A model generated the notes under the pieces. The model was not told where the DNA came from, searched no databases, and saw nothing but the letters and a program-made list of their open reading frames with translations. Positions 34,067-61,852 of a DNA stretch of 64,000 nt are shown here, in pieces. Position numbers and translations under genes: made by a program. The stretch's first letter is position 1; every line of letters begins with the position of its first letter. Source of the stretch: an uncultured Myxococcales bacterium (GTDB taxonomy: Bacteria; Myxococcota_A; UBA9042); contig CAISBR010000131.1 in NCBI GenBank assembly GCA_903883645.1, positions 11,871 through 75,870 of the forward strand, in the 5' to 3' direction.

Positions 34067-35740
34067 GTGACACTCTTGAGACAGAAACGCGCAGTTGCAG
34101 CGCGGGTGATTGGGCCGACCTGGCAGCCGTGCTATCGTCGTGCTGCCCGCCGTAGCGGGTCGATGGCGCCCATGGCCCGCCGCGGCATTAAACCCCCTGA
34201 AAAGAAAACGAGTCGCCCGGCCGCAACGCTGGGGTCGCCGCTGCTGACGGGCGAAGTGGGCACCCTGTGGCGGCGCGCGCCGACGGAAGTGGTGCTGTGC
34301 TACGCCAACAGCTACCGCGTGGCTGCGTCGAGCCTGGGCTTTCAGCTCATTTACCGCGAGCTGAACCGTCGCGACGATATGGCCTGCCACCGCGCCGTGT
34401 TCGAGCCTCTCGCGGTGCGCGGGCCGTTGCCGCCGATTCGCTCGCTCGAGTACGGCAAGCGCCTCGACGACTACGATGCGATCTTGCTGTCGCTGGCCTA
34501 CGAGCTTGATCTGGCGAATCTTGCTTTGATGCTAGAGGCTTGTGGCCTGTCGCCCCTGGCGAGTGAGCGGCCGGAGTCGGCGCCGCCGCTGATTGTGGGT
34601 GGGCCGGTCACGACCTCGAATGTGCTGCCGCTGGCCGTGTTTGCCGATGTGGTGGTCATGGGCGAGGCCGACGAGCTGATTGTGCAACTGACCGATGTGC
34701 TGGCGCAGCGACCGTCGCGGGCTGAGTTGCGGCGCTGGGCGCTGACGGTGCCGGGCCTTTGGGTGCCGGCAGAGCAGGGCGATGCGGTGCCGGCGCTGCT
34801 GCCGGTGGGCGCGCATTGTCTGCCAGCTTTGGGGCAATTTCGCAGTCCGAATGCTGAGTTTAGCGACATGATGCTGCTCGAGGCGAGCCGTGGCTGTCCG
34901 CGCTATTGCAGCTTTTGCGTGGTCCGCGCCCCCTTGGCGCCGATGCGCGAGCCCGAGCTTGATCGCGTGGTGGCAGCGCTCGATCGCCCTGAATTTGCTT
35001 CGAGTCCGCGGGTTGGCCTTGTGGGCGCGGCCGTGAGCGACTGGGGGCCGATCAAGGGCGCGATGCGCGCCATCATCGAACGTGGCAAAACCTTTGGAAT
35101 TTCGAGCTTGCGGGCCGATCGCTTGGACGAAGACGACGAGTTTGTCGACTTGTTGTACCAGGGCGGTTACCGAACCATGACAGTCGCGTCGGATGCCCCC
35201 AGCCAGCGCATGCGCAACAAGCTGAAAAAAGGTATTCGCGAAAGGCACTTATGGGGCTCGGCCCTGCAGGCGCGGCGCGTGGGCATGAACGGCTTCAAGA
35301 TGTATCTGATCATCGGTTTGCCGGGCGAAGAGGCCGAAGATATCGACGAACTCATCGCGTTTTGCCAGCGCTTGTCGACGCAGGTGCGCACCGCGATTAC
35401 ACTATCGCCCTTTGTGCCCAAGCTGCATACCCCGCTGGCGGCGGCGGAATTTGCCGATCCCGACGCGACCCAGGCGACGTTGCGGCGCATTCAGGCGGCC
35501 CTGGCCGAGCGGGTGGATGTGCGCTTCGACGCGCCGAAGTGGGCCTGGGTCGAGTATCGGCTGAGCCAAGGTGGCATGGCGACAGGGCTTGCCGCGATCG
35601 AGGCTGCGCGCAATGGCGGTGGATCAACGGCGTGGCGGCGGGCGTTGGCGGCCCTGGATGCTCGCGATGCTACAGAAGAACGAGCGGCACTGGCGGCGGC
35701 GGAGCGGCACAAACTGTGGCCGGCGACCGGCGAACGCTGA
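34067..35740 (+). CDS. B12-binding-domain radical SAM protein
   Basis: N-terminal cobalamin-binding-like Rossmann segment, radical SAM cluster motif SRGCPRYCSFC (Cx3Cx2C). Alternative start 34163. Confidence 0.7.
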   Translation: MTLLRQKRAVAARVIGPTWQPCYRRAARRSGSMAPMARRGIKPPEKKTSRPAATLGSPLLTGEVGTLWRRAPTEVVLCYANSYRVAASSLGFQLIYRELNRRDDMACHRAVFEPLAVRGPLPPIRSLEYGKRLDDYDAILLSLAYELDLANLALMLEACGLSPLASERPESAPPLIVGGPVTTSNVLPLAVFADVVVMGEADELIVQLTDVLAQRPSRAELRRWALTVPGLWVPAEQGDAVPALLPVGAHCLPALGQFRSPNAEFSDMMLLEASRGCPRYCSFCVVRAPLAPMREPELDRVVAALDRPEFASSPRVGLVGAAVSDWGPIKGAMRAIIERGKTFGISSLRADRLDEDDEFVDLLYQGGYRTMTVASDAPSQRMRNKLKKGIRERHLWGSALQARRVGMNGFKMYLIIGLPGEEAEDIDELIAFCQRLSTQVRTAITLSPFVPKLHTPLAAAEFADPDATQATLRRIQAALAERVDVRFDAPKWAWVEYRLSQGGMATGLAAIEAARNGGGSTAWRRALAALDARDATEERAALAAAERHKLWPATGER

Positions 35741-35838
35741 AACCCGCACCCCGAGCACGCCTTGCCAGTTGTCGAACGGCGGCAGTAACTGCATCCTATG
35801 GTGAGTCGGGCCGGCCAGCCCGCAGCCGAGGCTACGCC

Positions 35839-38800
35839 GTGCTCCCAACCCATCGCAGAATTCTTTCACTGTGGTTTCAAGTGCTTCTTAGCCTTGTGGC
35901 CGTATTTGCGACCGCCAGCTGCGGCGACGGTGCCTCGAGCCACCCCTGGGCCATCACCGGCGTACCGTGCCCAACCAGCAAAAGCCGCTGCGCCGAGCTG
36001 TGCGTCGACCTGAAGGCGGACCCCATCAACTGCGGCGAATGCGGCCACGGCTGCGGCCTGGGCGAGGTCTGCTCGCTGGGCAAGTGCGCGCTGTTCTGCG
36101 CCGACCCCTTGGTCGACTGCGGTGGCCTGTGCGCCGACCTTCGCACCGATGTGGCCCACTGCGGCACCTGCTCGACCGGTTGCCCCAAGGGCAGCGTGTG
36201 CCAAAACAGCAAGTGCGAGCTCAGCTGTATCGACGGCGATGTACCGTGCGGCGGCGCCTGTGCCAACTTGCAGGCGGACCCCAAGCACTGCGGCAAGTGC
36301 GAAAAATCGTGTGTCGGCGAAGAGTTCTGCAGCTCGGGCGAATGCAAACTGCCGTGCACCGGCGGCCAGCTGCAGTGCGGCGACAAGTGTGTCGATCTAG
36401 CGAGTGACGTAAGCAACTGTGCCGGCTGCGGCCAGACCTGCCCCGCGGGCAACTGGTGCGTCAATGCCAAGTGCGTGCCCACGTGCCAAGTTGGCATGGC
36501 GGAGTGCGGTGCGGCGTGTGTCGACCTAGATAACGACTTGAATCACTGTGGCAATTGCGACAAGGTCTGCGCGGCTGGCCAAGTGTGCAGCAAGGGGCAA
36601 TGCACCGCCGCTTGTGCCACGGGCCAGATCGAGTGCGGCGGCAAGTGCAGCGACCCCAAAGAGGATTCAACCCATTGTGGCGACTGCGAAACAGCGTGCA
36701 AGGCCGGCCAGTTGTGCTCGGGCGGCAAGTGCACACTGTCGTGCCAAGAAGGCCTGATTGATTGCGAGGGCGTGTGCGCCAACCCCAAGACCGACATTAC
36801 CCATTGCGGCGGCTGCTACCAACCGTGCGCCACCGGCAGCGTCTGTGTCGACGGCGCGTGCAGCTTGGCCTGCCCCGGCACCATGACCGGCTGCGAAGAC
36901 GGCCTGTGCGCCGACTTGACCACCGACCCCTTGCACTGCGGCAGCTGCAGCACCGTCTGCGCACCCGGCGAGAAGTGCACCGGCGGCAAATGCCTGCTGT
37001 CGTGCCAGAGCGGTTTTGAAGTGTGCGCGGGCACTTGCGTAGACTACGCCAGCAACAACCAGCACTGCGGCGACTGCGAAACCAGCTGCGCCACCGGCCA
37101 GCAGTGCAAGAATGGCAAGTGCGTCCTCGACTGCCAGCCGGGCCTGAGCGCGTGCGGCGGCACCTGTGTCGACGTCTCGACCAACAACGCGAACTGCGGC
37201 GATTGCGACCAGCCATGTCCGCTCGGCCACGTCTGCCAAGCCGGCAACTGCAAGCTTAGCTGCCAGCAAGGCATGGATGAGTGCAGCGGCACGTGCAGCA
37301 ATCTGAAAACCGACGAATTGCACTGCGGATCCTGCGACAAGCAATGCGCGTCGGGCATGATCTGCGTCAACGGCAAGTGCACGCCCGACTGCCCGGTCAG
37401 CCAGGTCAATTGTGGTGGCAACTGTTCGGATTTGCAGGTAGACCACCAGCACTGCGGCGACTGCGACACGGCGTGCTCGTCGGGCGAAATCTGCTTTAGC
37501 GGCAAGTGCGTGTCGAGCTGCAAGTCGCCCCTGCTCGGCTGCGGCAACGTGTGCATCGACCCCAATTTTGACCCCAACAACTGCGGCGATTGCGGCCAAG
37601 TCTGCCAACTGCCCAACGCGGTAGCGCCGGCGTGCATGGGCGGGGCTTGCCAAGTCACTACGTGCCAAGACGGCTACGCCAACTGCGACAACCAGTCGGC
37701 GAATGGCTGTGAAATCGAGCTAAAATCAAGTGGTTTGCACTGCGGCGCCTGCAATAAGGTGTGCACGTTGTTCAAGGCCATCCCCTCGTGCCAAGACGGC
37801 AAGTGCGTCGTCACCGCGTGCGAAGAGGGCTGGGGCGACTGCAACGGCAACGCTGACGACGGCTGCGAGCAAGACCTGGGCACCTCGGCGGCCAACTGTG
37901 GCGGTTGCGGCATCAAGGTCGCGGCCGGCGAAGTTTGCTGCGGCGCCAAGCCCGTCGTGGGCAGCAGCTATGCCACCGACTCGAACAACTGTGGCGCGTG
38001 CGGCAACGTCTGTGGCAGCGGCCAGGTGTGCTGCGGCGGCTTCTGCTACACGGTCGACGGAAGCAAAATCTGCCCCGATTGCGGCAAGTTGTGCAACGTA
38101 GCCGAAGTCAGTGGCAACAAGTTCATCACCACCGGTGCGGTCAGCAAGCTAGAAGCGTCGGGTTCGGGCATTAGCACCGTATCGAACGAGGGCGGCAAGA
38201 ATCAGGTCGCCACGCCCCGGGTGTGGATCGCCGCCCACGACTCGAACTTGGTGAACCGCCTCGACACCGGGTCCGGCAAATTGATGAGCGTGTTCCCATC
38301 GTTCGGCAGCAATCCGTCGCGCGGCGCGGTGGCACTCGACGACACGTTCTGGATTGGCAACCGCTGCCCGAGCGACGCCAACAACCCCAAGTGCAGCAAC
38401 GTCGCGCAGTTGAACAGCGACGGCACGCTGGGCTGCTTGGTGGGCAACGCCGCTGACGGCGCGCCGCTGCCGCTGGTTCGGGCGATCGCGGTCGATGACC
38501 AGGGCTTTATCTGGCTCGGCACCTGGAACGACGCGCGTATCCACAAGATCGACCCGTTAGCCTGCAAAACGATTGCCGATTACACCGTTCCCGTCGGTGC
38601 TAGCCCTTATGGCTTCGCGATCGACAGCACTGGCTTGCTCTGGATCAGCAGCCCCAACGGCCCGACCGAGCCGCTCCGCTCGTTCGACACCAAGACCGGC
38701 AAGTTGGTCGACAGCGTAGCGCGCAACTCGAACACCTATGGCGTGGTGGTCGACGGCGATAGCAACGTGTGGTTCGCGTCGTGGTGCACGCCCAACGTGC

Positions 38801-39522
38801 TCGAAATCGACAAAAAGACCAAGGCGTTGACCACCCGCAGCATCGATGGCTTGCCCAGCCCGAGCCAATGGTGTGCGCGCGGCATGGCGGTCGATGTCGA
38901 CGGCAACGTATGGGCAGCCGTGGGCCGCTACAACAGCGATGCGTGTGCTGCCGGCGAGAGCTATGTAGCTAAGTACCAGAAAACTACTGGTAAATTCCTG
39001 GGTTTGTACAAGATCGGCGCTCCGTTCGGCGGTGGCGCGCTCGGCATCTCGATGGACGCCAACGGCCGCTTGTGGGTCACCAGCACCTGCACGAACAAGG
39101 CCGCGCGCATCAACAAAGACACGGGCGCTACCGAGCTCGTCGCCGATTTGTACGGCACCAACCCGTACACCTATTCGGATTGGACCGGCGCGATGCTGAA
39201 GAATGTGACGACGCACAACGGTCAAATGGGGCTGTGGACGGCGAATTTTGATGGAAATGCCGCGACGGCCCAGTGGCAGCAGGCCACCTACACCAGCGAC
39301 ATCCCGGCTGGCACGCGCATCCGCTTGCGCTTCCGGGCTTCGTCGGCCATCGAAGCGATCGAAGGTGCGACCTGGTGCGTGCCCGCCGAGACGTCGCCCG
39401 TAGACCTAAAGTCCTGCAATTTCGGGCAGAAGCGTTACCTGCAGGCCCAGGTGTACCTGATTACCAACGATGTGGATGTGCGGCCCACACTCGACAACTT
39501 CAAAGTCTACTGGCAGAACTAG
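35839..39522 (+). CDS. Giant lipoprotein: about twelve tandem 43-aa 8-Cys repeats plus irregular Cys-rich modules, with a C-terminal beta-propeller (Vgb/SMP-30-like blades)
   Basis: Re-called start GTG 35839, giving MLPTHRRILSLWFQVLLSLVAVFATASC (lipobox). Repeat C-x3-C-x6-C-x3-C-x(9-10)-HCG-x-C-x3-C-x5-C (for example CELSCIDGDVPCGGACANLQADPKHCGKCEKSCVGEEFCSSGE). C-terminal blades VDDQGFIWLGTW, STGLLWISS, DSNVWFASW, DGNVWAAVG, NGRLWVTST. The in-frame upstream 196 codons in the track overlap the previous gene and are rejected. Confidence 0.8.
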   Translation: MLPTHRRILSLWFQVLLSLVAVFATASCGDGASSHPWAITGVPCPTSKSRCAELCVDLKADPINCGECGHGCGLGEVCSLGKCALFCADPLVDCGGLCADLRTDVAHCGTCSTGCPKGSVCQNSKCELSCIDGDVPCGGACANLQADPKHCGKCEKSCVGEEFCSSGECKLPCTGGQLQCGDKCVDLASDVSNCAGCGQTCPAGNWCVNAKCVPTCQVGMAECGAACVDLDNDLNHCGNCDKVCAAGQVCSKGQCTAACATGQIECGGKCSDPKEDSTHCGDCETACKAGQLCSGGKCTLSCQEGLIDCEGVCANPKTDITHCGGCYQPCATGSVCVDGACSLACPGTMTGCEDGLCADLTTDPLHCGSCSTVCAPGEKCTGGKCLLSCQSGFEVCAGTCVDYASNNQHCGDCETSCATGQQCKNGKCVLDCQPGLSACGGTCVDVSTNNANCGDCDQPCPLGHVCQAGNCKLSCQQGMDECSGTCSNLKTDELHCGSCDKQCASGMICVNGKCTPDCPVSQVNCGGNCSDLQVDHQHCGDCDTACSSGEICFSGKCVSSCKSPLLGCGNVCIDPNFDPNNCGDCGQVCQLPNAVAPACMGGACQVTTCQDGYANCDNQSANGCEIELKSSGLHCGACNKVCTLFKAIPSCQDGKCVVTACEEGWGDCNGNADDGCEQDLGTSAANCGGCGIKVAAGEVCCGAKPVVGSSYATDSNNCGACGNVCGSGQVCCGGFCYTVDGSKICPDCGKLCNVAEVSGNKFITTGAVSKLEASGSGISTVSNEGGKNQVATPRVWIAAHDSNLVNRLDTGSGKLMSVFPSFGSNPSRGAVALDDTFWIGNRCPSDANNPKCSNVAQLNSDGTLGCLVGNAADGAPLPLVRAIAVDDQGFIWLGTWNDARIHKIDPLACKTIADYTVPVGASPYGFAIDSTGLLWISSPNGPTEPLRSFDTKTGKLVDSVARNSNTYGVVVDGDSNVWFASWCTPNVLEIDKKTKALTTRSIDGLPSPSQWCARGMAVDVDGNVWAAVGRYNSDACAAGESYVAKYQKTTGKFLGLYKIGAPFGGGALGISMDANGRLWVTSTCTNKAARINKDTGATELVADLYGTNPYTYSDWTGAMLKNVTTHNGQMGLWTANFDGNAATAQWQQATYTSDIPAGTRIRLRFRASSAIEAIEGATWCVPAETSPVDLKSCNFGQKRYLQAQVYLITNDVDVRPTLDNFKVYWQN

Positions 39523-43970: not shown

Positions 43971-44059
43971 TTTCTAAGCTGCCTACGCGGCAGTGAACGA
44001 GATGGCCCAGCAGGATGCGCTCACGGACCTTCTTCTAAGCTGCCTACGCGGCAGTGAAC
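43971..44059 (-). CRISPR. Orphan CRISPR mini-array: two repeats matching the type I-F consensus (28 bp) flanking one ~33-bp spacer; no cas genes in the window
   Basis: Plus-strand repeats tttctaagctgcctacgcggcagtgaac (43971-43998) and cttctaagctgcctacgcggcagtgaac (44032-44059). The reverse complement, GTTCACTGCCGCGTAGGCAGCTTAGAAA, matches the I-F consensus including the CUGCC-N5-GGCAG hairpin. Spacer 43999-44031. Confidence 0.55.
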
Positions 44060-44125: not shown

Positions 44126-44222
44126 TCGAGTGCTCAACGCCTTACGGCAGCACGGCGACAAGAAGCTTGGCGCCTACACCAGATGGTGTAGATTGTGTCG
44201 TGCTCAACGTCTTACGGCCAGT
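44126..44222. repeat. Pair of degenerate ~24-bp direct repeats (tcgagtgctcaacgccttacggcag / tcgtgctcaacgtcttacggccag), possibly decayed CRISPR repeats
   Basis: 44126-44150 and 44198-44222; the core gcct-tacgg-cag resembles gcctacgcggcag of the neighbouring I-F repeat. Confidence 0.3.
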
Positions 44223-44993: not shown

Positions 44994-45056
44994 TTCTGCT
45001 GGCCCTGTGGCTGCTTCTGCTGGCCCTGTGGCTGCCTCTGCTGGCCCTGCGGCTGC
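44994..45056. repeat. Three copies of a 21-bp tandem repeat (ctgctggccctgtggctgcyt)
   Basis: Direct reading; encodes LLALWLL (+ strand) or PQGQQ(K/R)Q (- strand) heptads. Coding status uncertain. Confidence 0.6.
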
Positions 45057-45273: not shown

Positions 45274-45684
45274 CTACATCAACAGCAGGAACACGGCGCC
45301 AGCCGCGGCCGCCATGCGCCCACCGCCCTCGATAATTGCGATGACCTTGCCATATTTCGAGTCGCCCCGAATGACTTTATCTCCATCAAGAATTGCGATG
45401 ACTTTGCCGTATTTCGAGTCCCCAGCGATCAACTTTTCGCCATCGACGAGCGCAATCACTTTGCCATACTTCGAATCGCCGCCAATGACCTTTTCTCCGT
45501 CGACGAGGGCAATCACTTTGCCGTACCTGGAGTCTCCGGCTATCAGCTTGCCGTCCTCAAAGACCGCAATTACTTTGCCATACTTCGAGTCTCCGGCGAT
45601 CACCTTACCAAGCGCCCAAGCAGGCGAGGCCGCGCACACGCCGATTGCCATTGCCAGCCAGAAGTGCAGTAGTTTTTGATACAT
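45274..45684 (-). CDS. Small secreted protein composed of six tandem 19-aa repeats (GDSKYGKVIALVDGEKLIA)
   Basis: ATG 45684 with GAGGGG RBS; signal peptide MYQKLLHFWLAMAIGVCAASPAWA; 57-bp DNA periodicity; lower local GC. Confidence 0.6.
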   Translation of the reverse strand: MYQKLLHFWLAMAIGVCAASPAWALGKVIAGDSKYGKVIAVFEDGKLIAGDSRYGKVIALVDGEKVIGGDSKYGKVIALVDGEKLIAGDSKYGKVIAILDGDKVIRGDSKYGKVIAIIEGGGRMAAAAGAVFLLLM

Positions 45685-45890
45685 CGAGTGTCACCCCTCT
45701 GCCTTGACCATGGTTGCTGGCCTCTTTGGCTGGGCTCCGCCGTGCATCCGCCCGCGTGGGGCGTAGTGTCGCGACAACCTCAGCCTGTATCTGCTCTTGG
45801 CGCCTATCAGCGGCGTCCCTATATCCTTGTTGTAACTGTGGTCTTGCCGTCGTTCAGCGGCCAAGTACCGCCGTCGTGCCGGGCACCACC

Positions 45891-46422: not shown

Positions 46423-46803
46423 CTACCTCTGCTGCGCCAGCCACGCGTCGAACTCCGCCCGCCGCCCCTTCACAGCAAGCTCGTTGACTGCCCCGCACCG
46501 ACATAGCACCACGTAACCCACTGGCTGGCTTGCAATAAATGCATTCGGCTGCGTCAACACCACCGGCACCAGCTTCCCACAGGTCATGCACGGCGCGACA
46601 AGGGTCACATCCGCCACCGCCGCCAACACCGCGTCCCGCCTATGTTTTGCCCCAACTGTGTTATCCGTCCGCGCCACCTCAGCCAGGCGCTTAGCAATCG
46701 TGTTGCGATGCACGCCAGTGCGCTCGGCAACCTCAGCAATCGAGTACCCAGCTTTGTGGTCCTTCAGCAGCATATCCACAACTTCCTTCTTGAGTTTCGC
46801 CAC
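46423..46803 (-). CDS. Small HTH DNA-binding protein with a C-terminal Cys4 cluster (MGE regulator / excisionase-like?)
   Basis: GTG 46803 with GAGAGGTG RBS; HTH GYSIAEVAERTGVHRNTIAKRL; CMTCG...CRCG. Confidence 0.5.
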   Translation of the reverse strand: MAKLKKEVVDMLLKDHKAGYSIAEVAERTGVHRNTIAKRLAEVARTDNTVGAKHRRDAVLAAVADVTLVAPCMTCGKLVPVVLTQPNAFIASQPVGYVVLCRCGAVNELAVKGRRAEFDAWLAQQR

Positions 46804-46850
46804 TTTACACACCTCTCGTTTGCCGCTCGCTTCAGCATTAAGAGTCCATT

Positions 46851-46990
46851 CGCTGGCCGTCGGTAGCCTGTCTGTCTGCGAGTTCGAGAAACGCCTGCCG
46901 CGACGAGTGGCACGCGCTCGGCCGGCCGGCGGATCTGGCCGCGATGGAGTTGATCGAGGCGCGGTTGTGGGTGCGGCGCCGGCTGGGTAG
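46851..46990. repeat. ~140-bp block duplicated at 50582-50716 (about 88% identity; this copy has a 1-nt indel)
   Basis: Both copies were aligned by eye: ctggccgtcggtagcctgtc(t/c)gtctg...gagtggcacgcgctcggccggccggcgga...atggag...gatcga...tag. Confidence 0.6.
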
Positions 46991-47179
46991 GGCAGAGGAA
47001 GGGTGGGTTGCGCTGGATTGCAGTGTCGTGGCCGCCCGGTTCGGGCCCACGGACCTACACCAGCGGCACGAAAGCCCGCGGTGGCACCTGCACATTCTGC
47101 CCGTCGGGATAATTGCGCCGGCGCATATGCCATCACTACAACTGGCGGTCACTGAGGCCATGCCGGCGCGCCGCGGCCG

Positions 47180-47556: not shown

Positions 47557-47668
47557 GCACGGTATTCACCTGAACCAGCACCGAGCTGGCGAAACAGAAT
47601 TGCCCCGAGCGTAGCCAGACTTGGCCGCCACGTCGAGAGGGTGGGCCCGGCTCCATTGGCGTCAGCGC

Positions 47669-48577
47669 CTACCCGGCCACCCGCCCGCCGCGCTCCATCG
47701 GCAGCACCTCCGCCCCACCACCAGGCCCAAGCCCATCAAACCGCCCAAGATCCCCCATGAACGCCGCCGGGCTCAAATGCGCATACCGCAGCGTCAGCTC
47801 GGTCGACTTGTGCCCCAGAATCTTCTGCAGCTTGAACAGATCGCCGCCCGCCATCATCCAGTGGCTAGCGAACGTATGTCGCAGATCATGAAAGCGAATG
47901 TAGTGCGACTGCCGCCCCTGCTCCGGCCGCTTGAACCCCGCCGCGTCGAGCACCTTGTGAAAGCGCTCGCAAAAGATGCGGTCCTTCGACCGGTGCATCA
48001 GCCCCTTGGTGTTCGGAAACAGCAGCCCGCCCGGGCAGCGCAGCCGCCATGCCCGCAAAATCGGCAGCAGCACGTCCAGAATCGGCACATAGCGCACGTC
48101 GCCGGCATTGGTCGGCCCGTCAAAGCTGCGGTCCACGGTGATGATGCGCCGGTCCAGGTCCACGCACTGCCAGCTGAGCGCCGCCAGCTCGCCCTGGCGC
48201 AGCCCGGTGTAGACCGCAGTAGCAAATCGGGTGTAGGCGTCGACGCTATCGTCGTGCGCGGCCCGCAGGAACCGTTGCACCTCCTCGCTGGACCGCAGGT
48301 AGCTGAAGTCCTGGCCGTTGACCCGCACGCTGGGCTTGTCGATGGGCGGCACCGCCAGCAACCAGCCCAGCCGGTGCGCCTGTTTCAGCATCGACCCCAG
48401 CAGAATCAGCAGGTGCCTTAGCATCTGCTTGGACAGGCCGGCGCGCTCGGGCTTGAATACCGCGTTGCGGGCAAGGGCAACGTCTTGCAAGGCCTGCCCA
48501 AGAAGGCCCGGCGCCAACGGCCTGCTTGGCGCCTGCACAGGTGTATCCGCCGGGTACGTCTGCAGATTGGCGCCCAC
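47669..48577 (-). pseudogene. 5'-truncated copy of the tyrosine recombinase (integrase) found at 52375-53508
   Basis: About 90% identical to the full integrase from FKPERAGLS onward (catalytic R...HxxR...Y region intact), but the N-terminal ~125 aa are replaced by unrelated sequence. Confidence 0.7.
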
Positions 48578-50076: not shown

Positions 50077-50581
50077 GTGACTGCGCAATCGCGTTCGCCG
50101 GCCGCCTTAATTATCCGTGGCGACCACGTCGGAGCGAAGCTTGAATCCGCCCAAATGGTACCGACTTAATGGTGCGGCGCGCGATTTTGGGCCAAGGTTC
50201 GCAACAGCCGCATACTCCCGCAGCGGCACCCCGTGTCATGGGCTTCGTCGCCAAGAGCGCGTAGTGATTCTGAGTTGGCGGCGAATTCCAACCGAAGTTT
50301 GTAGCTGCCGGGCCTCGGCAACTGCCCCGGTCGATTGCTATCCAGCTTGAGCAGAGCTGCTTTGCAACGCGCCTTCACCTGCCAATGTGCGGACCGCCGT
50401 CGCCCACGGCCCGCCGAGGCGGGAACACGGGCCGGCTACCACGAGCGCGAGCCGGTCCGCGCATCGCGCCGCCCGTCGCCCCCGGGACCCTGATCCGCTA
50501 CGAAACCGGTGCCTGCGCCCTGAACACTGGCGTGACCTCCGGCGAGGCCCGCGCATTGGGCTGCAGGCTCGACGCGCTGGC

Positions 50582-50716
50582 CGTCGGTAGCCTGTCCGTC
50601 TGGGAGTTCGAGAACGCCTGCCGTGACGAGTGGCACGCGCTCGGCCGGCCGGCGGACCTGGCGGCCATGGAGCTGATCGAATCGCGGATGTGGGAGCGGC
50701 GGCGGGCGGGGTAGAG
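50582..50716. repeat. Second copy of the ~140-bp duplicated block (see 46851-46990)
   Basis: Direct alignment with the first copy. Confidence 0.6.
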
Positions 50717-50823
50717 CGACACAATCGAGAAGCCCAGTGGGTTACAGTGCTGCGATCTGGGCGGTTTGGTTATCAAGTGGGCAGCAAGTTGCAGCACCCT
50801 GCCCGGAATGCGCCACAACCCAA

Positions 50824-52374: not shown

Positions 52375-53508
52375 CTACCCCACCCGCCGCACCCGCCCGC
52401 CGCGCTCCATCGGCAAAACCTCCGCCCCGCCACCCAGCCCAAGCCCATCAAACCGCCCAAGATCCCCCATGAACGCTGCCGGGCTCAAATGCGCATACCG
52501 CAGCGTCAGCTCGGTCGACTTGTGCCCCAGAATCTTCTGCAGTTTGAACAGATCGCCGCCCGCCATCATCCAATGGCTAGCGAACGTATGTCGCAGATCA
52601 TGAAAGCGAATGTAGTGCGACTGCCGCCCCTGCTCCGGCCGCTTGAACCCCGCTGCGTCGAGCACTTTGTGGAACCGCTCGCAGAAAATCCGGTCCTTCG
52701 ACTGGTGCATGACGCCCTTGGTGTTCGGAAACAGCAGCCCGCCCGGGCACCGCAGCCGCCACGCCCGCAGGATCGGCAGCAGCACGTCAAGGATCGGCAC
52801 ATAGCGCACATCGCCGGCCTTGGTCGGCCCGTCAAAGCTCCGGTCCACGGTGATGATGCGCCGGTCAAGGTCCACGCATTGCCACGTCAGCGCGGCCAGC
52901 TCGCCTTGGCGCAGCCCGGTGTAAACCGCAGTCGCAAACAGGGTATAGACGTCGACGTCATCGTCGTGGGCCGCGCGCAAGAACCGTTGGACCTCCTCGC
53001 TCGACCGCAGGTACGAAAAATCTTTGCCGTTGAGGCGCACGCTCGGCTTGTCGATGGGTGGCACCGCCAGCAACCAGCCCAGCCGGTGCGCCAGCTTCAG
53101 CATCGACCCCAGCAGAATCAGCAGATGCCGCAGGGTCTGCTTAGACAGGCCGGCGCGCTCGGCCTTGAACGCCTCGATGCGAGCAAAGGTAATGTCCTGC
53201 AGCTGCAGCTTGCCAAAGGCCGGAGTCAGGTGGGCCCGCAGCCGGGACGCATCGTCGTTGCCGCTGCGCTTGTGGATCGCCCGCGTGGTCATCCACTGGT
53301 GCGATAGGTCGGCAAAGGTCTTCTTGGGCGGCGGGGCGGGCACTAGGCCCTGCTTGGCCGCATTGACGTTGGCGAGGAGCTGGTGGGTCGCCTGCTGGGC
53401 CTCGTTGTAGCTGTCGAAGGTCTTGGACTGCCGTTGGCCGGCGACGTCGTACCAGCGGACCTGCCACTTGCCGCTCGGCATTCGCTTAGGGTGAACTGAC
53501 CGGGCCAT
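52375..53508 (-). CDS. int: Tyrosine-type site-specific recombinase (phage/ICE integrase)
   Basis: ATG 53508 with GGGAGG RBS (MARSVHPKRMPSGKWQVRWYD); catalytic C-terminus ...HDLRHTFAS...LGHKSTELTLRYAH; adjacent to a tRNA. Confidence 0.85.
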   Translation of the reverse strand: MARSVHPKRMPSGKWQVRWYDVAGQRQSKTFDSYNEAQQATHQLLANVNAAKQGLVPAPPPKKTFADLSHQWMTTRAIHKRSGNDDASRLRAHLTPAFGKLQLQDITFARIEAFKAERAGLSKQTLRHLLILLGSMLKLAHRLGWLLAVPPIDKPSVRLNGKDFSYLRSSEEVQRFLRAAHDDDVDVYTLFATAVYTGLRQGELAALTWQCVDLDRRIITVDRSFDGPTKAGDVRYVPILDVLLPILRAWRLRCPGGLLFPNTKGVMHQSKDRIFCERFHKVLDAAGFKRPEQGRQSHYIRFHDLRHTFASHWMMAGGDLFKLQKILGHKSTELTLRYAHLSPAAFMGDLGRFDGLGLGGGAEVLPMERGGRVRRVG

Positions 53509-53737
53509 CCTTGCCTCCCGAAGGGGCAAGCTATCCATTCGTCTCAACTTCTTCTGCTGACAGTTTTGCCGACTTGTCTGTCAGCAAAACGGCCGGGCAG
53601 GGCGCCTTGGGGGCAGCCGCGCCGCGCCGAATCCCCGGTGTCCGAGCTACCCGCGAGCACCTCGAAAAACAGGGGGGGTACGAGCCTCTCGGGCAATTTT
53701 CGGGCAACGACAGGGGGTCAAAATCGAAATTCCCTAG

Positions 53738-53811
<74 letters not shown>

Positions 53812-53915
53812 CCGCCGCGCAGTTTCCTTGCTGCCCGCCCCACAGTCAACGGGCTTGCCCGCTTTGCGTCATCTTGTTACGGTGGAGCGGTGGCCCGCAG
53901 CCACGGCGAACTCCA

Positions 53916-55847
53916 GTGGCCAACCCAGCAGAATCACCAAAGCTTGCCCCCGCGGCCCCTGTCCTTGGCGACGGCGAACTCCCCTTTCGCGTCACCGATG
54001 CCTGCTTGGCGCATTGTGTATTCTGTGCCGAGCATGTTCCGCGCCGCACGCCCGACCTGGCTACCGACGCCGTGCTGGTCCGCCTGCGCGACCTGCTGCA
54101 CCAGCGCATCCCGCGTCGGCTGCTTTTGACAGGTGGTGAGCCGGCTTTGCACCCCCGCCTGCCCGAGCTCATTGCGCTGGCCCGCGCGGCCGGTGTCGCC
54201 GAAGTTGTGCTTGCCACCCACGGCGCGCCGCTGGCCGACGTGGTCAAGCTCGCGACTTGGCGCCAAGCCGGGCTGACGGGCGCGCGGGTGCTGCTTGTCG
54301 CCGCAAATCAAGAAGACGCCTCTGATCTCACACGTCTAGCCGATAGCTGGCGTTGGCAGCGCATGGGCCTATTGGCGGCGCTGCACCACGGTCTGCGCTG
54401 CGAGGTCGAGACGCCCGTACTCACCCTAACTGCGCCGAACTTGCCCGAAATTGCCGCGTGGCTGGCTGCCCTGCATCAGGCCGAGCGCGGTGCCAAGCGG
54501 CCGGGCCTGGCGGGTTGGCGCCTGCTGCCCTACATCAGCCATCCGCCCGGTGCGCCAGCGAATTTGCACGCGCTGCCCAGGACCATCGAGCCCCTGCTGT
54601 TGCAAGCCCTTACCGCCGCGAGCAGTGCCGATCTGCCCCTGGCGCTGCCGCCGAACCAAGGTTGGCACGCCTGTGCTTTCGACGATGTGCACAAGCTCCG
54701 CGGCCTTCTCGCTCGCACATCTGGCGGACTTTCAAGGGTTTACCTGCCCCAGTGCCACGATTGCGCTGTGCGGCAGCAGTGTCCGGGTGTCGAGGCGACG
54801 TTAGCCGGGCAGGGCGGTCCGGACCTGGTGCGGCCGTTTCGCGACGCGCAGAAGGCGGCCTGGCTTCCGCTGCACCGTGGCGGTACCACGCGCACTGCCG
54901 ATGGCCGGGAGCGCAACGTGCAGGTGCCCGTATCCAAAGACGAAGGCCAGGGTCGCGAGGTTCACGAGCTGGTCGTGCGGATTGTGCACCAGTGCAACCA
55001 GCGCTGCGCCTTTTGCTGGGTCGACTTCGAGGCGCCGCGCATGGAGCTCGCCGAAGTAAAAGACCGCGTGGATCAAGGCTTTACGGGCGGTCAGACGCCC
55101 ACGGTGGCCTTCACGGGCGGCGAACCGCTGCTTCATCCGCAAGTGCTCGAGATGATTGCCTATGCTCACGCTTCGGGTGCGCCCACGGTGTCGCTGCAGA
55201 CCAATGCCAGCCGCGTCCGCAGTCTTGAGCACGCTAGGCAGCTCGCCCAGGCTGGCTTGGGGCACGCGCTTGTGTCGCTGCACGCCGCCGATGCCGCCGC
55301 GTCGGACCACCTGACCGCAGCGCCCGGCACGTTTGAGCGGACCGTTCAGGGGATAAGATGGCTTTGTGAAGCAGGTATTTCCGTCACCATCAATCATGTG
55401 CTTACGCGCGATCTGGCACCCAAGTTTGCAGAGTTTGTGCGTTTTGTCGCAAACGAGCTCGCGCACCCCAAGCTTGGCCTGACTCTCGCCGTCGCCGGCC
55501 ACATCGACGCCGGTCCCATCGATCAGGGCGTGCTGCCCACCCACCGCGAACTTGGGCCGTGGGTCGCGCAAGGTGTTCTGCTCGCTAAGGAATTGGGCGT
55601 GCAGGTGGTGGGGCTGCTGCACCCGTGCGGTCTAGTGCCGTGCGCGCTGCCCGACCCGTGGCCCGTGCTCGATGCCGCCACCCTGCGGCCACCCGCTCTC
55701 GACGATTCGGCGGTGCTGCGCGACGGCGGTGTCAAGTCGGCCGAATGTGAGCGATGTGCTCTGAATCGCATGTGTTTTGGTCTGCGGCGCGAATATGTTC
55801 AGGTGCACGGTCTGGCCGAGCTGCACGCGATCGCTCCGCGGAGCTAG
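53916..55847 (+). CDS. Tandem (di-domain) radical SAM protein with C-terminal Cys-rich (SPASM/twitch-like) region
   Basis: Two Cx3Cx2C motifs (CLAHCVFC at ~aa 30; CNQRCAFC at ~aa 350), each followed by a GGEPxLHP segment (LLLTGGEPALHP / VAFTGGEPLLHP). C-terminal CGLVPC...CERCALNRMC. Start uncertain: the track's start (53511) runs through the tRNA, and GTG 53916 is the first plausible in-frame start. Confidence 0.65.
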   Translation: MANPAESPKLAPAAPVLGDGELPFRVTDACLAHCVFCAEHVPRRTPDLATDAVLVRLRDLLHQRIPRRLLLTGGEPALHPRLPELIALARAAGVAEVVLATHGAPLADVVKLATWRQAGLTGARVLLVAANQEDASDLTRLADSWRWQRMGLLAALHHGLRCEVETPVLTLTAPNLPEIAAWLAALHQAERGAKRPGLAGWRLLPYISHPPGAPANLHALPRTIEPLLLQALTAASSADLPLALPPNQGWHACAFDDVHKLRGLLARTSGGLSRVYLPQCHDCAVRQQCPGVEATLAGQGGPDLVRPFRDAQKAAWLPLHRGGTTRTADGRERNVQVPVSKDEGQGREVHELVVRIVHQCNQRCAFCWVDFEAPRMELAEVKDRVDQGFTGGQTPTVAFTGGEPLLHPQVLEMIAYAHASGAPTVSLQTNASRVRSLEHARQLAQAGLGHALVSLHAADAAASDHLTAAPGTFERTVQGIRWLCEAGISVTINHVLTRDLAPKFAEFVRFVANELAHPKLGLTLAVAGHIDAGPIDQGVLPTHRELGPWVAQGVLLAKELGVQVVGLLHPCGLVPCALPDPWPVLDAATLRPPALDDSAVLRDGGVKSAECERCALNRMCFGLRREYVQVHGLAELHAIAPRS

Positions 55848-57805: not shown

Positions 57806-59761
57806 CTACTGCGACGACTTGGCCGCGGCAAATCGCTGGCGCAGCACCGCAAACGTCACACTCAGCGCCAGCCACGTGACCAGCAGAATCACCAACAGGC
57901 GAATCTGGAAGTGTTCTAGGTGGCTATTGCCCTCATCGGCGCCCACAAAGTACCCGGTCGTCTTGCCGTCGCGCAGCACTGGCGCATAGCCAGAAAGCGA
58001 CAAACCCCAAGAATCACGGGTAAAATCGGTGTCAGCCATCGGAATCGCCGCCTTCGACCCCTCGACAATCTGCCCCGACGCCTCGCCCGCGTAGTCGTCG
58101 CCAGGAAGCGAGCCCTTTTCCTCGTCTTCGATCACGCCGTTACCATCCCGATCGACATCCTTTGGATACAGATCGACAACGAACGTGAAGTGCCCCGCCG
58201 CCGTCGCCGGCTTCATCACATAAAGCGACTTGATCTCGGGATCGCGCTGGTGATAGCGCTCGAGCAGCCGGTGTACCCTCAGGAATTCGGGCGAGGTAAT
58301 GCTTTTGCTCGCACCGATGCGGTCCAGATCGTCCGCCGCGATCTGGTTGGCAATCGCCTCTGCCAGACGCGCTTGCGCCGGCCGCATCTCGCGAATCACG
58401 GCGCTGTGCGCAATGGTCCACAGGCCTACACCCACCAGACTGAGCAAAATCGCTAAAATTGTAGTCGCGCCAGCAACTTGCGCGATCGCCTGCTTGCGCC
58501 GCTGGCCGCGGTCCAGGCGCTCGAGCACATCGCCAACGGACTGCGGGCGCTGCTCGGGCCGCTTGGCCAGGCACGCCGCCACCAGCTTCGCCAAGTCGCG
58601 ATCGACCCCTGGCACCAGCGTCTCTAGGTTGGGCGCCGGCGACGAACGATGTAAATCAGCAAGTTCTTGATTGGTTGCAGCCTTAAACGGCACTTTCTTC
58701 GTTAAGCTTACATAGAGAATTACGCCCAGTGCATACAGATCTGTGCGAGCATCGCCGCGCTGACCGTCCCACTGCTCGGGGGCCATATAGGTGGGCGTAC
58801 CGCGCCCGGCCGAGGTCACTTCCCACGGCGCATTGGCACTAACTTCGACCAATTCTTCAGGATTTGGTTCATCGTCATCGACGGCGGCGGCGATGCCAAA
58901 GTCCATGATGACCGCCACTCGCGCATCGGGCACCAGCATGATATTCGCCGGCTTCAGGTCGCGGTGCACCACGCCCGCCTTGTGCGCCGCCCGCAGCCCT
59001 TGGCAAATATTCACTGCAATTGCACGCACTTCAGTAGACGACAGCGGATCGCTGCGCTTGATGCGCGCCACCAGCGTCTCGCCCTCTAGGTGCTCCATCG
59101 TCAGGTAGTGTACGCCGGCCGCCTCGCCCAGGTCGTAAGTACGCGCCACATTAGGGTGATTGATGGCGTGGGCGATCGCCACCTCGCGGCGAAACCGCTC
59201 AAGGTCCTCTTCGGCCAGCTCGGCGCGGTCGGCGAACAGCGTCTTGAGCGCAACCTTGCGCCGCAGCAGCAGATCCTCGCACAGCCACACCGCACCCATG
59301 CCGCCTTCGCCCAGTTTGCTAATCAGCTTATAGCGACCATTGAGCGGCCGCCCCGACGACCAATCGATCGCGCGCACCAGCGGCCGGCGCGGCATCGGAC
59401 GCGGGCGCGGCGGCATTGGCGTGGCCTGGCGCAGACTTCCCGGCCCTGTGACCGGCTTGGGCGGCGGTGGGGGCGGCGGCGTCGGCACGCTCGGCACGGG
59501 GCCACTTGGCGCAGCGGCGGCACCACCGCGCAGGGGCTCGGGTGCGGTCCCCGGTCGCGGCACCACCAGCGGCGGCTGAGTCTGGGCGCGCACTGGCGCC
59601 GGACTCGGCACGGTAGGCGACCAAACACTAGGCTTTTCGTGCAGATTAGCACTAGCAACGGGCGCGCTCGCCGGCAGCTCGGGCCGCTTGGGCATGGGCC
59701 GGGCCGGCAATCGCTGGGGCGGCGGCGCCTTGGGCTGGGGATCGTTCGGCGGCTCGGCCAC
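57806..59761 (-). CDS. Transmembrane Ser/Thr protein kinase with a periplasmic Cache-like sensor domain between two TM helices
   Basis: Pro-rich N-terminus; kinase motifs GEGGMGAVW, VALK, HRDLKPANIML, DFGIA, GTPTYMAPE; TM, ~230-aa extracytoplasmic domain, second TM. GTG start abuts the paralogue's stop. Confidence 0.85.
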   Translation of the reverse strand: MAEPPNDPQPKAPPPQRLPARPMPKRPELPASAPVASANLHEKPSVWSPTVPSPAPVRAQTQPPLVVPRPGTAPEPLRGGAAAAPSGPVPSVPTPPPPPPPKPVTGPGSLRQATPMPPRPRPMPRRPLVRAIDWSSGRPLNGRYKLISKLGEGGMGAVWLCEDLLLRRKVALKTLFADRAELAEEDLERFRREVAIAHAINHPNVARTYDLGEAAGVHYLTMEHLEGETLVARIKRSDPLSSTEVRAIAVNICQGLRAAHKAGVVHRDLKPANIMLVPDARVAVIMDFGIAAAVDDDEPNPEELVEVSANAPWEVTSAGRGTPTYMAPEQWDGQRGDARTDLYALGVILYVSLTKKVPFKAATNQELADLHRSSPAPNLETLVPGVDRDLAKLVAACLAKRPEQRPQSVGDVLERLDRGQRRKQAIAQVAGATTILAILLSLVGVGLWTIAHSAVIREMRPAQARLAEAIANQIAADDLDRIGASKSITSPEFLRVHRLLERYHQRDPEIKSLYVMKPATAAGHFTFVVDLYPKDVDRDGNGVIEDEEKGSLPGDDYAGEASGQIVEGSKAAIPMADTDFTRDSWGLSLSGYAPVLRDGKTTGYFVGADEGNSHLEHFQIRLLVILLVTWLALSVTFAVLRQRFAAAKSSQ

Positions 59762-61651: not shown

Positions 61652-61852
61652 ACCTCGCCCTCGGAGTCTAGCGTGCGACGCAGCGAGCCGGGCGTCAAGC
61701 CGGCGCGGTTGGCTCCGTGGCGCCAGGTCGTGCAACCCCGCATCGCAACAGTGGACTGCATGCGCCAGTGGCAATGGCTTCTGGATTGTCGTAGCCTGCA
61801 AAATGGCTGCAAGCGCGTTCCGCTTGCCCCGACACTACTAGGAGGACCGCCG

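What the first reader, a model, noticed from the sequence alone, without database searches (positions are those of the whole stretch)
45274..45684. Small secreted protein made almost entirely of six 19-residue tandem repeats (GDSKYGKVIALVDGEKLIA)
After a clear signal peptide, the 112-aa mature protein is six near-identical 19-aa units (57-bp DNA period), each with two K(V/L)IA half-sites, as in a short beta-solenoid or beta-hairpin stack. The gene has a good RBS and lies in a lower-GC stretch of the accessory region next to MGE genes. I cannot place the repeat in a known family (it is MORN-like in rhythm but not in sequence). Candidate roles are a phage/ICE-encoded surface-exclusion, receptor-masking or ice-binding-like protein.
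Basis: seen in the sequence. Interest (0 to 1): 0.5.

Follow-up and report, generated by a model that had tools for sequence, protein, structure and literature searches.

The report
Secreted five-petal beta-flower protein
This is a real gene for a small exported protein of the recently described "beta-flower" fold, a flat barrel of five near-identical hairpins plugged by its own C-terminal helix. It adds a member to a known but functionally uncharacterised family and is not a new kind of protein.

Summary
The ORF at 45274-45684 (minus strand, 136 aa) is real and coding.

This is the beta-flower fold defined computationally by Durairaj et al. 2023. AlphaFold2 with a 27-sequence alignment (pLDDT 87.9) gives ten strands and a C-terminal helix, so it is a closed barrel and not a solenoid.

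Differences between the units fall mostly at third codon positions (pS 0.75 against pN 0.14), which rules out satellite DNA. Relatives are rare (138 clusters among 1.84 billion) and none has a solved structure.

The gene lies in an ORFan-rich stretch with two integrase paralogues, a tRNA-Arg and an orphan two-repeat CRISPR mini-array. Contexts of relatives are mixed: mobile elements, bamA-skp, LPS glycosyltransferases. Function is untested. My best guess is an envelope-binding periplasmic disc. An anti-phage role is possible, because the four-fold beta-flower protein Cernunnos is an anti-phage system, but it is unproven here. Verdict: new member of a known kind, modest interest.

The parts
45274..45684 (-). 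Complete CDS, 136 aa plus stop: exported beta-flower protein
   Evidence: ORF list. Pfam PF21786 at 62.2 bits against a cut-off of 34. Homologues keep the frame and architecture.
45694..45699 (-). Shine-Dalgarno GAGGGG, 9 nt before the ATG
   Evidence: Read directly from the sequence.
45613..45684 (-). Signal peptide, aa 1-24 (MYQK / LLHFWLAMAIGVCAAS / PAWA, predicted cleavage before LGK)
   Evidence: Composition analysis. Relatives also start with hydrophobic leaders ending in A-x-A, or with lipoprotein signals. No SignalP-type predictor was available.
45325..45609 (-). Five 57-bp / 19-aa hairpin units (aa 26-120): strand, GDS(K/R)YGK loop, strand, short acidic turn
   Evidence: TRF, the repeat finder, unit extraction, unit-HMM count. 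The AF2 model has 10 strands at aa 26-30, 38-43, 46-49, 57-62, 65-68, 76-81, 84-87, 95-100, 103-106 and 114-119 (construct numbering +20).
45277..45321 (-). C-terminal hydrophobic helix, aa 122-136 (GRMAAAAGAVFLLLM), inferred to plug the barrel
   Evidence: AF2 helix at aa 122-135. The motif GG-x-M-[SA]-[GA]-A-A-A-A-x-[FY]-L-L-L is conserved across the family and recurs after each domain in tandem-domain relatives such as P0024. Enclosure in the barrel is inferred from the family description in PMC10584680, not measured here.
47669..48577 (-). Context: tyrosine recombinase (302-aa ORF), shorter paralogue of the one at 52375-53547
   Evidence: Pfam Phage_integrase, E = 7.5e-26. 90% nt identity over 823 nt to 52379-53201.
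52375..53547 (-). Context: tyrosine recombinase (390 aa) next to tRNA-Arg
   Evidence: Pfam Phage_integrase, E = 1.4e-27.
53737..53811 (-). Context: tRNA-Arg(TCT), likely integration target of the island
   Evidence: ARAGORN. No att direct repeat could be found, so the island borders are not defined.
43971..44059 (-). Context: orphan CRISPR mini-array, two 28-nt repeats and one 33-nt spacer, 1.2 kb downstream on the same strand
   Evidence: Rfam RF01317 CRISPR-DR4 at 45.9 and 42.5 bits against a gathering score of 35. Exact 27-nt repeat found twice.

Best explanation
The gene encodes a small protein that is exported by the Sec pathway to the periplasm, where the signal peptide is removed.

The 11.5-kDa mature protein folds as a beta-flower. 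This is a flat, closed, ten-stranded antiparallel barrel made of five near-identical hairpin units, with its narrow hydrophobic channel filled by the protein's own Ala/Gly-rich C-terminal helix.

One face carries five long loops, each GDS(K/R)YGK. Together they form a ring of five Tyr and ten Lys/Arg, with a net charge of +1 per loop. The other face carries five short acidic turns (EDG, DGE, DGD, EGGG).

The most likely mode of action is multivalent binding, through the basic and aromatic petal face, of a repetitive or planar anionic envelope component such as phospholipid or LPS head groups or a cell-wall glycan. The protein would act as an autonomous single-gene module. Here it appears to have been acquired as cargo of an integrase-bearing island.

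Shown here: gene reality, family membership, five-unit architecture (from sequence and the unit HMM), selection on the repeats. Inferred or predicted: the fold itself (an AlphaFold2 model), periplasmic location, helix-in-barrel packing, and everything about ligand and physiological role.

My probabilities: family and fold about 0.9; extracytoplasmic about 0.8; envelope or membrane binding about 0.4.
For: Family:
- PF21786 at 62.2 bits against a cut-off of 34.
- All close homologues carry the same Pfam hit.

Fold:
- AF2 with a 27-sequence alignment gives pLDDT 87.9 and pTM 0.75, with 10 strands and a C-terminal helix.

Coding and selection:
- Differences between units by codon position are 28/20/113.
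- Mean pS is 0.75 against pN 0.14.

Export:
- Signal-peptide features are present.
- Relatives carry signal peptides or lipoprotein signals. In about 300-aa fusions the order is FHA (cytoplasmic), one TM segment, then the flower. This places the flower outside the cytoplasm.

Helix as part of the domain:
- It is conserved family-wide.
- It is repeated after each flower in tandem-domain proteins.

Envelope theme in the contexts of the closest relatives (55-68% identity):
- bamA-skp-flower in three Verrucomicrobiota-like loci.
- An LPS heptosyltransferase, a sulfotransferase and an APS kinase, and a GT61 glycosyltransferase.
- A pseudopilin.

Loop chemistry is given. The proposal of membrane association for beta-flowers comes from PMC10584680.
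Against: - No experiment exists for any PF21786 member, and no solved structure exists by sequence or fold search.
- Gene neighbourhoods are not conserved across the family, so guilt by association is weak in any direction.
- The conserved G-D-S-x-Y-G loop could be purely structural (a tight turn) and not a binding site.
- The window gene itself sits among ORFans with no recognisable envelope genes.
Confidence: 0.55

Rival explanations
1. Anti-phage or superinfection-exclusion factor. As cargo of an integrative element, the exported flower coats or alters an envelope component, or triggers an envelope-level response. This blocks phage adsorption, DNA entry or replication and so protects the host of the element.
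For: - Cernunnos, a single-gene cassette of the Vibrio cholerae superintegron with a four-fold beta-flower domain (PF21784), gave phage resistance when expressed. Its homologues were found preferentially in Escherichia prophages (bioRxiv 10.1101/2024.07.02.601686).
- The window gene lies between two integrase paralogues and an orphan CRISPR mini-array, near a tRNA-Arg.
- More distant relatives (30-45% identity) sit in element-like contexts: next to an Xre repressor and an integrase (L013); WYL, Xre and small ORFs (L014-16); at the edge of an insertion beside metF-ahcY-metK (L010, L017); beside a methylase and small-ORF arrays (L012); beside VapE (L002).
Against: - Cernunnos belongs to a different Pfam family, and the window protein does not match PF21784 even at E <= 10.
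- PADLOC had no hit for the protein, its neighbours, or most neighbours of its homologues. That database (2023) predates Cernunnos.
- No relative was found in 50,697 phage records, 72,556 plasmids, or IMG/VR with three pattern sets.
- The closest relatives sit in ordinary chromosomal contexts.
Confidence: 0.18
2. Periplasmic sensor or adaptor module. The flower is a ligand-sensing or docking domain that normally reports to a cytoplasmic signalling partner. The stand-alone secreted form would act as a soluble co-receptor or decoy for such a system.
For: - A whole subfamily is FHA, TM, flower (Pfam FHA at 22-29 bits against a cut-off of 20.7).
- One such fusion lies beside a Ser/Thr kinase, a phosphatase, a TPR protein and a VWA protein.
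- Other relatives have multi-TM N-termini (P0029).
- The window carries several Ser/Thr kinases.
Against: - The window protein has no TM segment or signalling domain.
- No FHA gene was recognised among the ORFs examined at 39.5-53.5 kb, and the kinases lie more than 12 kb away.
- The contexts of stand-alone forms do not share a signalling partner.
Confidence: 0.12
3. The hydrophobic C-terminus is not a barrel plug. It would instead be a membrane anchor or a C-terminal sorting signal (GlyGly-CTERM/rhombosortase or PEP-CTERM type) that tethers the hairpin repeats to a membrane or the cell surface.
For: The tail begins with GGG, is uniformly hydrophobic (mean Kyte-Doolittle 1.73) and sits at the extreme C-terminus.
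Against: - At about 14 hydrophobic residues it is too short to span a bilayer, and it lacks a basic cluster after it.
- No GlyGly-CTERM or PEP-CTERM model appeared among the NCBIfam matches listed at E <= 10.
- The same motif occurs internally after each flower domain in tandem-domain proteins (P0024 and P0030).
- AF2 models it as a helix at pLDDT about 80-85 within the domain.
- The published family description has the helix enclosed by the barrel (PMC10584680).
Confidence: 0.08
4. Non-coding 57-bp satellite, or a spurious ORF, with the real gene (if any) on the opposite strand.
For: Two long ORFs (149 and 145 aa) overlap on the plus strand. No promoter or terminator consensus was found nearby.
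Against: - 113 of the 161 differences between units fall at third positions of the minus-strand frame.
- pN/pS is about 0.19.
- The Pfam match is significant.
- Homologues with the same frame, unit number and C-terminal helix occur on contigs of 30-66% GC.
- A good RBS is present.
Confidence: 0.01

Closest known systems
Pfam PF21786 Bflower_3, 'six-fold beta flower protein' (clan CL0395; Durairaj et al., Nature 2023, PMC10584680)
   Same: It matches the HMM above the gathering score (62.2 against 34). It is built of short beta-hairpin repeats with long loops on one face and short turns on the other. It has a C-terminal hydrophobic helix, is bacterial, and has an N-terminal export signal.
   Different: - It has five units and ten strands, not six and twelve.
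- Five-unit proteins align to only about 100 of the 125 profile positions, at offsets 1-100 or 18-115.
- In this protein the units are unusually alike: 73% mean identity within the protein, against 57% to the same positions in the nearest other aligned protein.
Pfam PF21785 Bflower_2, 'five-fold beta-flower protein' (I assume this family includes the ten-stranded type example A0A494VZL1)
   Same: Five petals and ten strands. It is a shallow barrel with basic and aromatic residues on the long loops.
   Different: - The window protein has no match at E <= 10.
- Its closest relative, L021, reaches only 20.9 bits against a cut-off of 38.
- By sequence the protein belongs with the six-fold family.
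Cernunnos anti-phage cassette of the Vibrio cholerae superintegron (four-fold beta flower, PF21784; Darracq et al., bioRxiv 10.1101/2024.07.02.601686)
   Same: A small single-gene beta-flower protein carried on mobile or accessory DNA.
   Different: It has four-fold symmetry and belongs to a different Pfam family with no detectable sequence match. Its localisation and mechanism are unknown. Anti-phage activity was not tested for the window protein.
Tubby C-terminal domain and LURP1/scramblase-like proteins (PDB 1I7E; At5g01750, 1ZXU/2Q4M)
   Different: These have twelve long strands, are eukaryotic and cytoplasmic, and differ in strand order by a circular permutation according to PMC10584680. 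No sequence similarity was found. The phosphoinositide-binding site could not be assessed.
MORN repeats and choline-binding (cell-wall-binding) hairpin repeats
   Same: A rhythm of about 20 residues with G-x-G-containing hairpins. Durairaj et al. note that some beta-flowers had been annotated this way.
   Different: No MORN or choline-binding family appeared among the Pfam matches listed at E <= 10. Foldseek hits to CbpJ and CbpF are non-significant (E about 1.5, TM 0.14-0.16). The model is a closed barrel, not an open superhelix.

Membership tests
Beta-flower, Pfam PF21786 (Bflower_3) | Match to the family HMM above the curated gathering score | tested here: met
   62.2 bits against a cut-off of 34, E = 5.9e-17, aa 29-121.
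Beta-flower, Pfam PF21786 (Bflower_3) | Shallow closed antiparallel barrel built of repeated short hairpins, with long loops on one face and short turns on the other | tested here: met
Beta-flower, Pfam PF21786 (Bflower_3) | Six-fold symmetry (twelve strands) | tested here: not met
   There are five units and ten strands. In 31 domains, including this one, five is the maximum number of contiguous units before the helix. The protein is a five-petal form recognised by the six-fold profile.
Beta-flower, Pfam PF21786 (Bflower_3) | C-terminal hydrophobic helix enclosed by the barrel (stated for 'many' members in PMC10584680) | tested here: inconclusive
   The helix is predicted (aa 122-135), is conserved and is domain-internal in tandem proteins. 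Burial could not be measured without coordinates.
Beta-flower, Pfam PF21785 (five-fold) | Match to the family HMM | tested here: not met
   It was not listed at E <= 10.
Cernunnos-type anti-phage beta-flower (PF21784) | Match to PF21784 (four-fold flower) | tested here: not met
   It was not listed at E <= 10.
Cernunnos-type anti-phage beta-flower (PF21784) | Confers phage resistance when expressed | not testable with these tools
   This needs plaque assays.
Tubby C-terminal / LURP1-like (clan CL0395) | Twelve-stranded barrel around a central helix, with sequence or profile similarity | tested here: not met
MORN repeat | Match to MORN HMMs | tested here: not met
   No MORN family appeared among the Pfam matches listed at E <= 10.
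GlyGly-CTERM / PEP-CTERM sorting signals | Match to the NCBIfam sorting-signal models; a TM-length helix followed by basic residues | tested here: not met
   No such model appeared among the NCBIfam matches listed at E <= 10. The hydrophobic stretch is 14 residues with no basic tail.
Phage- or plasmid-borne gene | Relatives present in phage, plasmid or viral-contig collections | tested here: not met
   tblastn found no match in phages or plasmids. Three IMG/VR scans found no true relative; the only two hits are a metallophosphoesterase.

The most novel reading that the evidence does not exclude
The secreted five-petal beta-flower is an autonomous, envelope-level anti-phage or superinfection-exclusion factor. 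It would be carried as cargo at the distal end of a tRNA-Arg integrative island, next to an orphan CRISPR mini-array whose repeat I recall as type I-F-like. Its five near-identical Tyr/Lys loops, kept alike by strong purifying selection, would bind a symmetric or repetitive envelope target that phages need. This would extend the single experimental beta-flower phenotype (Cernunnos, four-fold) to a second beta-flower family and give that family a mechanism.
Probability: 0.15. Interest if true: 0.6.

Novelty: new member of a known kind. Interest (0 to 1): 0.33.

Why it matters
Beta-flowers were found in 2023 purely from AlphaFold models. No member of this family has a solved structure or a tested function.

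This member is a clean, minimal example: signal peptide, five almost identical petals, and a helix plug. It is encoded in an accessory island, so it would be a convenient construct for a first structure and for lipid, LPS or glycan binding assays and phage-challenge tests.

It also shows that the Pfam "six-fold" family contains a coherent five-petal subgroup. Beyond that it does not change any current view.

Tried and rejected
- A single-sequence AF2 model was uninformative (pLDDT 51.6). It was replaced by the alignment-based model.
- The afdb50 fold library was unavailable.
- Foldseek against the PDB and BFVD gave nothing significant. Sequence and profile searches of the PDB gave nothing.
- NCBIfam, PHROGs and PADLOC had no family for the protein.
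- tblastn against phages and plasmids gave no match.
- Of three IMG/VR scans, two found nothing and one gave only a false positive, a metallophosphoesterase sharing HEGYGTY.
- The first genome-contig scan with the single protein found no relative. The alignment A2 was too divergent for pattern design.
- The search for att direct repeats of the tRNA-Arg 3' end failed, so the island borders remain undefined.
- No neighbour of the window gene is homologous to any neighbour of the homologues then in hand (loci L001-L017). The later metagenome loci (L020-L035) were clustered only among themselves and with L001, L005 and L006. That gave only lineage-restricted conserved neighbours, plus one small ORF shared by four loci that may be an ORF-calling artefact.
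- My first repeat-identity calculation was out of register and gave wrong values. It was redone with HMM-anchored units.
- The source organism could not be named. The exact protein is absent from the 5.8-billion-protein collection (best hit 60% identity) and from the GTDB representative genomes.
- I could not map the '[DNEQ]xxG' motif mentioned in PMC10584680 onto this sequence with confidence.

Full report
**Observation.** The coordinates 45274..45684 delimit an ATG-started ORF of 136 aa on the minus strand. A GAGGGG Shine-Dalgarno lies 9 nt upstream, at 45694-45699. Residues 1-24 have the layout of a Sec signal peptide: MYQK, a 16-residue hydrophobic core, then P-A-W-A. The mature protein is 112 aa, 11.5 kDa, pI 9.1. 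No signal-peptide predictor was available, so cleavage is inferred. Tandem Repeats Finder and the repeat finder both report a 57-bp period over about 45325-45609. Local GC is 0.565-0.573 against 0.60-0.69 on either side. The observation therefore holds, with two corrections:
- There are five complete units GDS(K/R)YGKVIA-xx-(D/E)G-x (aa 26-120). The first begins with the strand GKVIA. There are not six.
- The last 15 residues, GRMAAAAGAVFLLLM, are not a repeat.

**It is coding, not a satellite.** The five units are 60-77% identical in DNA and 63-79% in protein. Of the 161 nucleotide differences among them, 113 fall on third codon positions of the minus-strand frame, against 28 and 20 on the first and second. 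A Nei-Gojobori count gives a mean pS of 0.75, which is saturated, against a mean pN of 0.14. The units are therefore old and held nearly identical by purifying selection on the protein. Homologues with the same frame, the same five units and the same tail occur on contigs of 30-66% GC.

**Family.** Pfam places the protein in PF21786, Bflower_3 "6-fold beta flower protein", at 62.2 bits against a cut-off of 34 (E = 5.9e-17). Durairaj et al. (Nature 2023, PMC10584680) described the beta-flower fold from AlphaFold models. It is a shallow symmetric barrel of short hairpins ("petals") in four-, five- or six-fold arrangements. Many members enclose a C-terminal hydrophobic helix, and some have lipoprotein signals. 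[quoted passage not shown] No function was assigned.

**Rarity.** The family is rare:
- An exhaustive phmmer search of 1.84 billion cluster representatives found 138 proteins at E <= 1e-3 and 43 at E <= 1e-10.
- The word-indexed search of 5.8 billion proteins found nothing closer than 60% identity.
- The closest relatives overall are 66-68% identical and come from JGI metagenome contigs.
- Two named MAGs carry 60%-identical copies. One is labelled Pedosphaera sp. and the other Akkermansia muciniphila.

Foldseek against the PDB and against viral models found nothing significant. Sequence and profile searches of PDB sequences also found nothing. No relative has an experimental structure.

**Five petals in a "six-fold" family.** A 19-residue unit HMM finds five contiguous units before the helix in 31 domains, including this one, and never six. 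Five-unit proteins align to only about 100 of the 125 profile positions of PF21786, at either offset (1-100 or 18-115). This is what a six-unit profile would give. The five-fold family PF21785 is not matched by the window protein at E <= 10. Its closest relative matches it only below threshold, at 20.9 bits against 38. So this is a coherent five-petal subgroup that belongs by sequence with the six-fold family. That is a minor refinement, not a new fold.

**Homogenised repeats.** In most relatives, a unit resembles the unit at the same position in other proteins more than it resembles its neighbours. One example shows 0.79 same-position identity against 0.48 within the protein. The five-unit layout is therefore ancestral. 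In the window protein the opposite holds. Identity is 0.73 within the protein, 0.57 to the same positions in the nearest other aligned protein, and 0.54 off-position. Three other relatives show the same pattern (P0038, P0026, P0011). The units were homogenised in this lineage. Because synonymous sites are saturated, this happened long ago and the units have been kept alike since. That fits a requirement for five equivalent surfaces.

**The C-terminal tail.** The motif GG-x-M-[SA]-[GA]-A-A-A-A-x-[FY]-L-L-L is among the best conserved parts of the family. In tandem-domain relatives it follows every flower domain. P0024 is a 628-aa protein with an N-terminal Cys-containing, lipoprotein-like signal and several flower domains, and P0030 is another. 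The tail is therefore part of the domain and not a terminal sorting signal. It is 14 hydrophobic residues long, has no basic tail, and no GlyGly-CTERM or PEP-CTERM model appeared among the NCBIfam matches listed at E <= 10. Its richness in Ala and Gly suits packing inside a narrow ten-stranded barrel. That last point is my inference.

**Topology.** Stand-alone relatives begin with signal peptides. A subfamily of about 300 aa has an N-terminal FHA domain (Pfam FHA at 22-29 bits against a cut-off of 20.7), then a linker, one TM segment and the flower. FHA domains act in the cytoplasm, so the flower is placed outside it. This agrees with the signal peptide seen here.

**Context in the window.** The region 39.5-52.3 kb is almost entirely ORFans by Pfam, PHROGs and PADLOC. 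The recognisable features are:
- A weak HTH protein at 46423-47136.
- Two tyrosine recombinases, at 47669-48577 and 52375-53547, which are 90% identical over 823 nt. The second abuts tRNA-Arg(TCT) at 53737-53811.
- All genes from the integrases down to the flower gene are on the minus strand.
- On the same strand, 1.2 kb downstream of the flower gene, two 28-nt repeats separated by a 33-nt spacer (43971-44059). They match Rfam CRISPR-DR4 above its gathering score (45.9 and 42.5 bits against 35). No cas gene was recognised among the ORFs examined at 39.5-53.5 kb.

This looks like one or two tandem integrative elements at tRNA-Arg with the flower gene as cargo. I could not find att repeats, so the borders are undefined.

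**Context elsewhere is mixed.**
- Closest relatives (55-68% identity):
  - bamA-skp-flower opposite a giant PQQ-propeller/CBM9/malectin protein in three GC-rich loci, one of them the MAG labelled Akkermansia. The Pedosphaera MAG has a pseudopilin upstream instead.
  - An LPS heptosyltransferase, a sulfotransferase and an APS kinase, and a GT61 glycosyltransferase.
  - VWA-PKD plus a Tubulin_2 protein.
  - Ordinary metabolic genes.
- More distant stand-alone relatives (30-45% identity):
  - An overlapping Xre HTH gene plus an integrase (L013).
  - WYL, Xre and small ORFs (L014-16).
  - The edge of an insertion beside metF-ahcY-metK (L010, L017).
  - A DNA methylase, a bPH domain protein and small-ORF arrays (L012).
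  - bPH and VapE (L002).
  - Downstream of, and overlapping the last gene of, a cluster with ATPgrasp_Ter, PRTase_2/TRSP, StiP/PELOTA_1, C-C_Bond_Lyase and HAD domains, which I recall as tellurium-resistance (Ter)-associated (L003).
  - Beside a caspase-like protein (L008).
- No neighbour family is shared across lineages, and none is shared with the window. The protein therefore most likely works on its own.
- No relative was found in phage, plasmid or IMG/VR collections.

**Mechanism.**
- Shown: a real gene, membership of the family, five units, and strong selection on the repeats.
- Predicted: the closed-barrel fold with a C-terminal helix.
- Inferred with good support: export to the periplasm.
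- Inferred with moderate support: the helix plugs the barrel.
- Hypothesis: the petal face carries five GDS(K/R)YGK loops, that is five Tyr and ten Lys/Arg at +1 per loop. It lies opposite a face of acidic turns. The petal face would bind an anionic, repetitive or planar envelope component multivalently. Candidates are phospholipid or LPS head groups or a glycan.

This follows the membrane-association suggestion of Durairaj et al. and the envelope theme in the contexts of the closest relatives. I give it about 0.4.

**Main rival.** The main rival is an anti-phage or exclusion role. Its support is that Cernunnos, a four-fold beta-flower protein (PF21784) from the V. cholerae superintegron, protects against phages. 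Its homologues were found preferentially in Escherichia prophages (bioRxiv 10.1101/2024.07.02.601686). The island setting here and the element-like contexts of distant relatives add to that. Against it:
- Cernunnos is in a different Pfam family, and the window protein does not match that family.
- PADLOC is silent.
- The closest relatives are chromosomal.

I give it 0.15-0.2. A sensor or adaptor role (from the FHA fusions) and a membrane-anchor reading of the tail are less likely. The satellite reading is refuted.

**Verdict.** It is a new member, in a five-petal subgroup, of the beta-flower family. The fold is known and the function is unknown. Interest is modest. It would rise if the anti-phage reading or a defined envelope ligand were demonstrated.

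Noticed in passing
window 43971-44059 (minus strand): Orphan CRISPR mini-array. Two 28-nt repeats (GTTCACTGCCGCGTAGGCAGCTTAGAA[A/G]) match Rfam RF01317 CRISPR-DR4 at 45.9 and 42.5 bits (gathering 35), separated by one 33-nt spacer. From memory this is the type I-F repeat consensus. No cas gene was recognised among the ORFs examined at 39.5-53.5 kb. There is no self-target in the window and no convincing protospacer in the phage or plasmid collections. It lies in the same integrase-bearing region as the flower gene, so it could be an element-borne mini-array or solitary-repeat decoy.
   Followed up: partly
window 44130-44148 and 44200-44218: A 19-nt direct repeat, GTGCTCAACG(C/T)CTTACGGC, spaced 70 nt, just upstream of the mini-array in minus-strand terms. 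The first copy overlaps a sub-threshold CRISPR-DR23 hit (31.3 bits against 45). Meaning unknown.
   Followed up: no
window 47668-48489 vs 52379-53201; also 46851-46993 vs 50575-50717: Two tyrosine-recombinase genes are 90% identical over 823 nt, and a second 144-nt segment is 89% identical. Together they suggest two related integrative elements in tandem next to tRNA-Arg(TCT) at 53737-53811. The distal integrase ORF is shorter (302 against 390 aa). No att repeats were found.
   Followed up: partly
window 44994-45056: A 21-bp tandem repeat x3 (TTCTGCTGGCCCTGTGGCTGC, 95% matches) in the 477-bp gap downstream of the flower gene. It would encode QPQGQQ(R/K) repeats in a minus-strand 86-aa ORF, or LLALWL repeats in a plus-strand ORF. 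Whether it is coding is unknown.
   Followed up: no
window 35251-39522 (+): A 1423-aa ORF with eleven Stig1-like Cys-rich repeat stretches (Pfam PF04885, E = 6e-66) and a 129-bp DNA periodicity, plus weak beta-propeller signals. It is probably a large secreted or surface protein.
   Followed up: no
window 53511-55847 (+): This 778-aa ORF with a radical-SAM domain at aa 476-642 overlaps the tRNA-Arg gene on the other strand, so its true start is probably well downstream of 53811.
   Followed up: no
window 57806-59761 and 59762-61801 (minus strand): Two adjacent PknB-like Ser/Thr kinase genes (NCBIfam NF033483, E about 1e-75 each). Together with several histidine kinases elsewhere in the window, they point to a large-genome, GC-rich diderm host whose identity I could not establish.
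   Followed up: no
relatives P0011, P0028, P0033-P0035, P0037, P0039 and others (about 300 aa); P0024, P0025, P0030: Beta-flower domains occur fused as FHA, TM, flower. P0011 lies beside a Ser/Thr kinase, a phosphatase, a TPR protein and a VWA protein. They also occur as tandem arrays in proteins with N-terminal Cys-containing, lipoprotein-like signals, and in giant proteins with up to 16 matched stretches. I did not find these architectures mentioned in the passages of the 2023 description that I read.
   Followed up: partly
L003 6001-6504 (relative P0004): A flower gene overlaps the 3' end of a cluster carrying ATPgrasp_Ter, PRTase_2/TRSP, StiP/PELOTA_1, C-C_Bond_Lyase and HAD domains. I recall this as the tellurium-resistance-associated nucleoside-like metabolite cluster. 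It is one lineage only (two contigs).
   Followed up: no
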